Part shown: positions 29,905 through 32,900 of the stretch, one piece after another
Position numbering within the stretch: the first letter of the stretch is position 1
How the letters are laid out: the number at the start of each line of letters is the position of its first letter
Assembly (NCBI RefSeq): GCF_016433145.1
Contig: NC_058134.1
Location: 216,762,137 to 216,826,136 of the forward strand
Length of the DNA stretch: 64,000 nucleotides
Direction of reading: 5' to 3'
From: Gracilinanus agilis
Taxonomy: Eukaryota
Notes under the pieces: model-generated
Told to the model about the DNA's origin: nothing
The model's input: the letters and a program-made list of their open reading frames with translations, nothing else
Databases searched by the model: none
Position numbers and translations under genes: made by a program

Positions 29905-32900
29905 GTCAGTGGAGGGGGTGGGGGTGAGGGACAGCACCGAAGGAAGGGCTGATCAGGAAAAAACCCCAGGGCAGCCGGAAGCCCAGCAGCTCTCATTACA
30001 ATTCTTTGTTTTGCAGTGATGATGGAGGAGTCCAAACTCACCAACTTCCAGCAGCGCCAACTCATGGATTCTATGAAAAGTAATTTTGGGGAGGAGGAAG
30101 CTAAGTGGCTCAGTGGATAGAGAGCCAGGGAAGCCCTGGGTTCTAATCTGGTATGGCCTCAGACACTTCCTAGCTGGGTGACTGGGCATGTCAATTAACC
30201 CCCAGTTGCCTGCCCTTTTCTGCTCTAATGCCTTAGAAGTGATATTGATCCTAAGACAGAAGGTAGTAGTTTAAAAAGAAAGAAAAGTAATTTGAAGTCC
30301 TGATGCTTCTCTTCCTCTTTCACTGCCTTCCTCACCCCTTCACTACAGAGGCATAGCAATAACTGTATACTTGACTGGTCACATCACCCTTACTGCCTAG
30401 AGATTCCTTTGGGATAGGTTGTTTAGCAACCTATGTTTTATATGTGTATAATTCATTTTTCCAGTCAGACTATAAGCTATTTGAGGGGTAGGTAGGTACC
30501 ATTTTCCTTCGACAGAGGTCACATGCCTAGTTTCACTGGAAAAGGAACCTTGAGGGAGCTCACTTTTCTGTTGGCCTTAACTTTTCAGTAAAGTGGGAGA
30601 TGGGTTATCTGTTGAATGTTGGAGGATTGATGTGGTTGTGGTGTTTGCAGAGATTGGAGGGCATAAACAGGCATCCAAACACAATAGACATCAGAATAGG
30701 TTATGCACAGTTTGATAAAAAATACAAGGGGCAAGGAAGCTAAGTGGCACAGTGGATGGAGTGCCAGGCCTTGAGACGGGAGGTCCTGGGTTCAAATTTG
30801 ACCTCAGACATTTCCTGACTGTGTGACCCTGGGCAAGTCACTTAACCCCCATTGCTTAGCCCTTACCACTCTTCTATCTTGAAACTGATACTTATATCAA
30901 TTCTAAGATAAAAGGTAAGGGTTTTTAAAAAGCAATACAAGGAGAAGGAAGGGAGTTCCTTCAAGGTGTTGTGAGGAAGATTAGATTAGTTAGTTAATTA
31001 AGTATTCCATCTTGGAATTCCCAGCTCCAGCTCCTTCCTGCTAGGTCAACCTTAATACTTAATTAACTAACTAATCTAATATTCCTCACAACAAAGGTAA
31101 GGGGATCAGAGAAACTTCTTTGAAGAATAGATCACTTTGGCAGGAAGGAATTGTGGAGGGTATTTCTGTTCAGAAAGGGTTTGGTCTAGAACAGGAAACT
31201 CCCTTGCAACTTTGAGGTTCTATGGTATAACAAAGGCCCAGGGTCAGGAAGGCATTCCTAAATCTTTCCAGGTCAATATTCTCCCTAAGCCCTGGTCCTT
31301 CCTCCTTAGTAAAGAATGTTCCTTTGGCTTGCTTATTCCCCTTATCCCTGGGCCTCCCTTCACATCCTCCAGTCTAGCTACTCAAACTGCAGAGCTGTAG
31401 GACCTTCCCCCAGCCCCAACATCATTGTTAATCTACTGACTTGGATAGGGCCCCTACATTATTTCACTTGAGACCTGTGAGGCCAATTACTTCTATTTGA
31501 CAGATGAGAAAATCAAGGCTTAGAGAAGAGGCTAGGAAATGGCCAGGCCAAAGGTGGGCTCCTGGGACCTGGACTTTTGCCCTCTTTCCTTCCCCATCTT
31601 TCCCTAGGAGGTGAGGCACTGCCTACTCGGTGCAACCCGATATCTACCCAGAAGCCAGCATCCAAGAGAATCAGCAGTTTCTGCCTGCCCCCCATCTTGG
31701 CACCAAGGCCACACCTCCGCCCAGCTGAACTCTGTCAGGCCAGTGAGGCCTACACCCGAGAGCAGTTCAAACCGAGACCTTGTAGTAAGTATAAAGCCCT
31801 AAGCCTAATAAAGAGGTGAGGGCACTGTTGCCCTTGGCCCAGCCACACAGCACAGTTTGGAACAGATGTTGAAATGGCAGCTTCCTCAGGTTTGCCAAGA
31901 TTCTCCTCAAAATGATCTGGAGCATTAACCAAGGTCTCTTACCCAATCTAATGTGAGCAGTGATGTTATCCTGAATCAACATCTGCGGCAGAAGAGGAAA
32001 AGAAAAAACACAAACCCACCAAACTCTTGTATCCGAGGGAGATTTATTGGGGGAGACAGTGATGAGCTGACAGGGTGGAGGGTGGGGCTGGAGCTACTGC
32101 AGCCCCAACCCCCTATCTCAACAGTGGCCAGCAACTCTGACCTGGGGCAGAGGGTGGCCCATTGTCTGTCCTTCCTTCCTTCCTTCCTTCCTCCTGGTGC
32201 TTCATCCTGAATAGACCTCCTATTACAACCTCAGCTGTCTCCAAAATAGCCTTCTCCTTTCTGCAGCCCGAAGCATCACCTGGCCATTGGACCCCACTGT
32301 GTGCCCTGTCTGTGCCCAGCACAGAGCCCTGAGAGTCTGGGAGCCCAGGCACGGGTGTGCCAGGTGTGCGCCCAAGGGCATATACTCCAGTAAGGGAGGC
32401 CCAATATAGTCTTGTTCTCCCATTACACACACACACACAGAGAGGTTCTCTTTGGGTTCTTGCAGAAGATATAGAGAAAGAGAAAGAGAGACTCCAAGAC
32501 ATATTTGCCAATGGAAAGGATGCCATTGAGAAGAGGAAAAAAAAGCAGTCTGTTCGGCAGATTGAGCCTCCATCCTCGGACCCAGAGCCAGATAGATTTG
32601 AAGAATGTAAGGCACTATGAATATGCCCGGGGTCCCAAGGGGGTCAGGGTACCCCAGCCTTTCTCCTGGGCTACCTCATCACGTGAGCACGCCGAGCCAG
32701 GTGGCTTCCAGGTCTAAATTTGGTGAGCCTGTGACTCGTAGCCATGTTACAGGCCACAAGGGGATGGTAGGGCCTGGGAGTTGAATGGCCCTATGGAATG
32801 CAGCCATTCCTCTCCCAGGTGGGTTATGATCCTCATTCAAATCAATCCCCAGGAGTTCCAAAAGGGCGGGACCTCAGAGATGGAAGAATAGGAAAGTTGG

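What the first reader, a model, noticed from the sequence alone, without database searches (positions are those of the whole stretch)
30963..31097. 127-bp hairpin element with TG...CA ends, 40-bp TIRs and a 4-bp target duplication
Seen: AAGG | TGTTGTGAGGAAGATTAGATTAGTTAGTTAATTAAGTATT - 47-bp spacer - AATACTTAATTAACTAACTAATCTAATATTCCTCACAACA | AAGG. The arms match at 39/40. Established: TG...CA termini with 4-bp duplications are the footprint of retroviral-type DDE integrases (class I ERVs, and Ginger DNA transposons, which have TIRs of 40 bp or more and TGT...ACA ends). Inference: a miniature non-autonomous element, either a Ginger-like MITE or a collapsed or inverted LTR derivative. Near-identical arms point to a recent insertion. 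It lies in a sense intron of a probably testis-expressed gene and would fold into a 40-bp RNA stem, so it is also a candidate miRNA/endo-siRNA or ADAR substrate. I cannot match it to a family I know.
Basis: partly seen in the sequence, partly recalled or inferred. Interest (0 to 1): 0.7.

Follow-up and report, generated by a model that had tools for sequence, protein, structure and literature searches.

The report
Two-left-end retroviral hairpin insertions
This 127-base hairpin is the left end of a common endogenous-retrovirus repeat joined to a flipped copy of itself, one of about 90 separate such inserts in this genome; they likely form when the virus miscopies its DNA and its own integrase pastes it in anyway, so it is a recurring by-product that looks like a mini DNA transposon but shows no sign of spreading by itself.

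Summary
The hairpin is real (arms 39/40, AAGG on both sides). It is not a Ginger-like MITE. It is nt 1-90 of an ~820-bp class I ERV LTR (minus strand) joined at a 3-nt overlap to inverted nt 40-1, so both ends are the left (U3) end. Its junction occurs once in the genome.

The layout recurs: a gapped pattern finds 96 places (control 0) against 4214 LTR starts. Of 91 examined, 86 are independent (31-422 bp, no two identical); 57 have an exact and 82 a near-exact 4-bp target duplication, with the same target preference as normal LTRs. Repeated junctions share their flanks, so none was re-mobilised. A second LTR family shows the same products (6 of 29 loci).

Integrase insertion of two-left-ended DNA is well supported. 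The step that makes that DNA (I favour fold-back of new plus-strand cDNA) is inferred. Whether right-right products exist is unresolved, because my controls were insensitive. No RNA function was shown.

Ten paper searches found no description; Repbase/Dfam were unavailable. The scan noted similar inserts earlier, in this and other genomes.

The parts
30963..30966 (+). Left target-site duplication AAGG
   Evidence: family duplication is 4 bp (16 of 24 tested copies exact, 22 within one mismatch, none 5 or 6 bp)
30967..31006 (+). Short arm: LTR nt 1-40 (left/U3 end)
   Evidence: 100% to real LTR copies
31004..31093 (-). Long arm: LTR nt 1-90 (left/U3 end), includes the 47-nt spacer
   Evidence: 39 other genome hits match only query 38(40)-125/127 at 93-99% and continue into an ~820-bp LTR
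31004..31006 (.). 3-nt overlap at the junction (ATT / AAT)
   Evidence: split alignment, same value with the 3 best real copies; junction pattern found once in the genome
31007..31053 (-). Hairpin loop = LTR nt 41-87
31081..31081 (-). The one arm mismatch (LTR nt 13, T where 28 of 29 other copies have G): a private change in the long arm
31094..31097 (+). Right target-site duplication AAGG (direct, not inverted)
30080..31607 (+). Host intron of a UPF0193 gene (exons near 29820-29903, 30013-30079, from 31608)
   Evidence: PF05250 hits on both sides; GT and AG read

Best explanation
The element is the first 90 bp of a class I endogenous-retrovirus LTR joined to an inverted copy of its first 40 bp, likely formed as a miscopied viral DNA carrying two left (U3) attachment ends and likely inserted by the virus's own integrase; it is one of about 86 independent such inserts found here. 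SHOWN: LTR origin, two left ends, direct 4-bp duplication, recurrence with different junctions, no re-mobilisation, a second family with the same products. INFERRED, strong (about 0.88): the two-ended DNA existed before or at integration and was joined by concerted integrase action. INFERRED, moderate (about 0.55 of that): newly primed plus-strand DNA, which starts at the U3 end, stops early, folds back on itself and is copied back to nt 1, giving a hairpin with one finished U3 end. Two such hairpins, or the two strands of the opened palindrome, would fill the two integrase sites and anneal into one duplex afterwards; this would explain inserts too short to bend. Some long arms were later shortened by internal deletions. 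The insert is most likely inert.
For: Parent is an LTR: TGT...ACA ends, 4-bp duplications, a PBS-like flank after GT and a purine tract plus AC before the start. Internal pieces hit zf-CCHC, RVP, RNase_H, rve and MLVIN_C above cut-off, Gag_p30 and RVT_1 below; RNase H is closest to MLV/XMRV, E 4e-43. Genome-wide 96 places, control 0 (split 54+42) against 4214 LTR starts; 2 of 96 sampled young copies and 2 of the first 39 unselected loci. 91 of 96 examined: duplication exact 60, one mismatch 26, no exact 5- or 6-bp. After dropping 1 false hit and 4 flank-sharing duplicates: 57 exact, 82 of 86 within one mismatch, no identical pair, median 83 bp. Target profile V..B in 49 of 57 vs 47 of 57 for normal copies; PMC2857682 (passages) gives VTAB for MLV. 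All tiled pieces come from LTR nt 1-501, apart from a SINE-like insert in L165. Junction overlap of 3 nt or more in 7 of 44 simple elements vs 5.6% in simulated joins, p about 0.01. Second LTR family: 6 of 29 distinct loci (30 of 53 matches fetched) are left-left inserts with 4- or 5-bp duplications.
Against: 33 of 44 simple junctions have only 0-1 nt overlap, weak for self-priming and typical of end joining; calls are noisy where the nearest copy is diverged. 26 of 86 are 60 bp or shorter, too short for one duplex to fill both integrase sites (recalled), so an extra step must be assumed. Some have two long arms or internal deletions (L155, L166, L173, L174, L187), and one-ended stubs exist; both fit host repair. 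The left-end bias is not established: the right-right searches were negative, but their motifs match only 16 of 80 and 0 of 39, or 30 of 80 and 4 of 39, normal copies. The size window (at most 424 bp) could not show arms that pass the LTR end. 4 of 86 lack a clean duplication. No empty site was seen.
Confidence: 0.6

Rival explanations
1. Integrase paired the U3 ends of two separate viral DNAs. Host end joining then fused their trimmed far ends, or a long head-to-head dimer collapsed afterwards into a short imperfect palindrome.
For: Mostly 0-1 nt overlaps (33 of 44); secondary internal deletions and two long arms; one-ended stubs and left-right mini-LTRs with duplications (L088 92 bp, L233 76 bp). 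It needs no bending of short DNA. Collapse of long palindromes is recalled; the listing gave no direct source.
Against: No U5, PBS or host filler pieces in the tilings; very short median size; no right-right insert among 25 loci picked by the right end or (weak controls). It requires surviving a chromosome break at a few per cent of insertions.
Confidence: 0.28
2. A normal solo LTR was remodelled after insertion by a double template switch that replaced its right part with an inverted copy of its left end, keeping the old duplication.
For: Normal right ends share ACA (sometimes CAACA) with the inverted left end; short junction overlaps fit template switching.
Against: The second switch would have to land exactly on the last LTR base in 82 of 86 cases. 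The expected class that runs on into inverted flank is missing: of 6 of 91 flagged, 5 have a duplication within one mismatch and 1 is the false hit.
Confidence: 0.08
3. A Ginger-like or other MITE that is cut and pasted as a unit.
For: 40-bp inverted arms, TGT...ACA ends and a 4-bp duplication match the outline of Ginger elements in PMC2836005 (passages).
Against: Junction unique; no identical pair among 86; repeats L118/L250, L251/L252 and L166/L253/L254 share flanks; sequence is wholly LTR; target profile is that of the ERV, not CCGG/CCGT or RTATAY.
Confidence: 0.03

Closest known systems
Solo LTRs and proviruses of class I (gamma/epsilon-like, ERV1) endogenous retroviruses
   Same: Sequence source, TG...CA ends, 4-bp duplication, VTAB-like target preference (PMC2857682 passages).
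   Different: Both ends are U3; no U5 end; 31-422 bp instead of about 820 bp; forms a hairpin.
Aberrant retroviral integration and autointegration products (uncoordinated joining, PMC2857682 passages; MLV circle with an inverted segment, Shoemaker 1980, seen only as a reference title; guppy PrERV-1 with an inverted 5' LTR, PMC5210030 passages)
   Same: Rearranged viral DNA that ends up in the chromosome.
   Different: Uncoordinated events give wrong duplications or deletions, whereas these have correct ones. The internal joint is not a CA-end strand-transfer joint. Here it is a recurrent germ-line class at a few per cent of insertions, not a single case.
Ginger1/Ginger2 DNA transposons and their MITEs (PMC2836005 passages)
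   Same: Inverted termini starting TGT, 4-bp duplication, integrase-type chemistry.
   Different: No transposase partner, no copy family, different target preference, arms usually shorter (median 21 bp) and made of LTR U3.
Internally deleted mini-LTRs / TRIM-like derivatives (TRIM recalled)
   Same: Tiny LTR-derived inserts with correct duplications; left-right minis occur in this family (L088, L233).
   Different: Those keep one left and one right end in direct order and do not fold.

Membership tests
Ginger DNA transposon / MITE | Terminal inverted repeats of about 40 bp or more with TGT start | tested here: met
   40-bp arms, but they are LTR U3 sequence
Ginger DNA transposon / MITE | Many copies of one element with different target duplications | tested here: not met
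Ginger DNA transposon / MITE | Target preference CCGG/CCGT (Ginger1) or RTATAY (Ginger2) | tested here: not met
   AAGG here; 32 distinct duplications among 60, profile as in normal LTRs
Ginger DNA transposon / MITE | Autonomous partner with the same inverted ends around a transposase | tested here: inconclusive
   Longer relatives are LTRs of a gag-pol element; inverted pairs more than 424 bp apart could not be searched genome-wide
Class I ERV LTR derivative | Sequence identity to an LTR with PBS, purine tract and gag-pol | tested here: met
Class I ERV LTR derivative | 4-bp duplication and gamma-type target preference | tested here: met
Ordinary solo LTR | One U3 end and one U5 end in direct order | tested here: not met
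   both ends are nt 1 onward
Named Repbase/Dfam family | Match to an annotated repeat entry | not testable with these tools
   no repeat library on hand
miRNA / endo-siRNA precursor | Stable long stem in a transcript | tested here: met
   z = -10.7; intronic, sense strand
miRNA / endo-siRNA precursor | Phased small-RNA reads or editing on the arms | not testable with these tools
   no suitable RNA run was available
miRNA / endo-siRNA precursor | Match to a known family | tested here: not met
   best Rfam 27 bits vs gathering 122

The most novel reading that the evidence does not exclude
Retroviral-type elements routinely shed integrase-competent, inverted-repeat-bounded DNAs at a few per cent (in one family about 20%) of germ-line insertions. 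This is an overlooked product class that supplies the missing step from an LTR element to a TIR DNA transposon such as Ginger1, shows that integrase can pair two U3 ends in vivo, and seeds introns with ready-made hairpins able to yield silencing RNA against the parent virus.
Probability: 0.25. Interest if true: 0.85.

Novelty: new variant of a known kind. Interest (0 to 1): 0.58.

Why it matters
Integration is taught as one U3 end plus one U5 end. About 86 clean U3-U3 inserts in one family, and more in a second, give a natural dataset on how often integrase pairs two like ends and how reverse transcription fails. [quoted passage not shown] Practically, such hairpins will be mis-called as MITEs or miRNA genes in mammalian annotation. 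The single insert itself shows no function.

Tried and rejected
Rfam: chance hairpin hits only.

Right-right controls: one search gave 21 places vs 12 control, none read as this family's right end (judged from the listing; 15 fetched), and one search gave 0; both motifs proved insensitive, so neither is counted as evidence of absence. Inverted pairs more than 424 bp apart were not searched genome-wide.

First junction script under-called arms near mismatches; replaced by a split alignment. 8 complex or false elements were left out of the 52 before the count of 44.

Sequencing runs: no RNA holder listed. Contigs of runs X1, X3, X4 and X10 gave no piece bridging the site and organism B gave almost no cover over the insert; neither is evidence.

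No env family hit in 11 short frames between integrase and the 3' LTR of two copies; weak, as the frames are broken. L249 was not a provirus.

A notebook reading of L275 as an inverted-flank event is withdrawn: it reads equally as a GTTC target with an 11-bp tandem duplication on one side (by eye).

Papers: searches (listings) found no description of recurrent two-U3-end inserts. The library lacks most subscription and older virology papers. Passages were read of PMC2836005, PMC2857682, PMC5210030, PMC12789967 and PMC10085805 (irrelevant); no supplements were opened.

Full report
Observation. The structure is as described: arms 30967-31006 and 31054-31093 (39 of 40 complementary, 47 nt apart), with AAGG directly on both sides. 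The RNA fold is far beyond chance (z = -10.7). It sits in a 1528-bp GT-AG intron (30080-31607) of a + strand UPF0193 gene.

What it is made of. A search of the own genome scored 40 of 1503 candidates. Only the window matched all 127 bp; the other 39 matched positions 38(40)-125/127 at 93-99%. In the 29 fetched, that stretch is the start of a repeat of mostly 780-850 bp ending ...TACA, with 4-bp duplications (16 of 24 tested exact, 22 within one mismatch). Some copies are followed by GT and a PBS-like flank leading into shared internal sequence; two are preceded by a purine tract and AC. Unaltered internal frames hit nucleocapsid, protease, RNase H, integrase core and the MLV integrase C-terminal domain, and RNase H is closest to MLV/XMRV. 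The parent is therefore a class I ERV and the repeat's start is its U3 end. The element is LTR nt 1-90 on the minus strand plus nt 1-40 on the plus strand, overlapping by 3 nt. The junction occurs once in 3.7 Gb. One private change and 89 of 90 identity to L002 suggest a young insert.

It is one of a class. Among 96 of the first 100 exact LTR starts (190 in all), two more had two left ends with different junctions: L074 (217 bp) and L085 (54 bp, exact duplication). A pattern of two opposed 12-nt ends 5-400 nt apart found 96 places, control 0, against 4214 exact 17-nt starts. Only 18 of 25 copies picked by the right end keep the 12-mer, so 96 is a lower bound. I examined 91 of the 96: duplication exact in 60, one mismatch in 26, never an exact 5 or 6 bp. 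One hit is a false pair (L168; MIR-like by recall) and four are duplicates sharing flanks (L250, L252, L253, L254). The remaining 86 have 57 exact and 82 near-exact duplications, no two are identical, and the median size is 83 bp. They come from several LTR subfamilies. Target preference equals that of normal copies and the VTAB motif given for MLV in PMC2857682. An unrelated ~865-bp LTR family, met by accident, has 6 such inserts among 29 distinct loci. Earlier scan notes describe similar single inserts in this genome (e1-9295652, e1-9549271) and in others (e1-8602347, e1-10282277, e1-10279157); I did not check them and do not count them as support.

How it most likely forms. A direct 4-bp duplication abutting nt 1 at both ends in 82 of 86 cases needs two CA-3' ends joined in concert; that is integrase (established chemistry; PMC12789967 and PMC2857682, passages). 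Remodelling of a normal LTR after insertion would have to return to the exact last base every time and should leave many cases that run into inverted flank; these are missing. So the two-left-ended DNA most likely existed at integration (about 0.88). For its origin I favour fold-back of new plus-strand DNA, which begins at U3: tiled pieces come from LTR nt 1-501, sizes are strongly skewed short, and overlaps of 3 nt or more are enriched (7 of 44 vs 5.6%, p about 0.01). Because 26 of 86 are 60 bp or shorter, one stiff duplex could not fill both integrase sites (recalled). Two hairpins, or the two strands of an opened palindrome, could do so and then anneal without a chromosome break; this is inference. 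Against it, 33 of 44 junctions overlap by only 0-1 nt, several elements carry later deletions or two long arms, and one-ended stubs and left-right minis exist. Pairing of two separate viral DNAs with host end joining therefore stays a serious rival (0.28). The apparent lack of right-right products would favour fold-back, but my two controls were too insensitive to establish it; 0 of 25 loci picked by the right end were inverted.

Comparison with known systems. It looks like a Ginger MITE in outline but fails the defining tests: no copy family, wrong target preference, wholly LTR sequence. It is not a solo LTR, having no U5 end. It belongs with aberrant retroviral integration products, but differs from uncoordinated events in having correct duplications and from autointegration in lacking a CA-end internal joint. 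Ten full-text searches found no account of such a recurrent class; the nearest item is one guppy provirus with an inverted 5' LTR (PMC5210030, passages). Older virology papers and Repbase/Dfam were out of reach, so prior description cannot be excluded. PMC2836005 (passages) states that the route from LTR element to DNA transposon is unclear; note e1-8602347 raised that link before I read the paper.

Function. The hairpin would be in the host pre-mRNA and could in principle be edited or diced into RNA matching the U3 of thousands of LTRs, but nothing here tests that. I put a real RNA role below 0.1.

Verdict. Real feature; new variant of a known kind; interest 0.58. The interest lies in the class and its frequency, not in this one insert.

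Noticed in passing
L290-L319 (G000, pattern; 53 matches): Second LTR family, about 865 bp, with PBS-like and purine-tract flanks, mixing 4- and 5-bp duplications; 6 of 29 loci are left-left inserts, a much higher share than in the first family.
   Followed up: partly
L088 (92 bp) and L233 (76 bp): Mini-LTRs with one left and one right end, the middle deleted, and exact 4-bp duplications.
   Followed up: partly
L047, L049, L070, L072, L079, L094, L095, L067: Left-end-only stubs of 40-200 bp; L094 and the older inverted piece in L049 may keep a 4-bp duplication despite having a single CA end.
   Followed up: no
L115, L251, L257, L267, L276: In 5 of 31 elements that reach it, the long arm ends right after the same purine run near LTR nt 55-64, in different subfamilies; possible pause site, noticed after the fact.
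   Followed up: partly
L118 and L250 (G000 C1 265.4 Mb and C3 668.6 Mb): A 652-bp block including one insert is 100% identical on two chromosomes: recent duplication or assembly artefact.
   Followed up: no
L015: LTR followed by 43 nt of PBS/leader and then a second short copy of the right end; another aberrant product.
   Followed up: no
L032, L080, L188, L193, L194 (G000 C2 158.26-158.31 Mb): Cluster of tandem or nested broken proviruses, two of them 98.5% identical over 6.4 kb.
   Followed up: partly
window 30095-30275 and 30733-30931: Two SINE-like repeats in the same intron; the second ends about 30 bp before the insert. Family label not tested.
   Followed up: no
window 4438-4455 (-): An 18-nt near match to the LTR start, probably an unrelated old repeat sharing the motif, as in false hit L168.
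   Followed up: no
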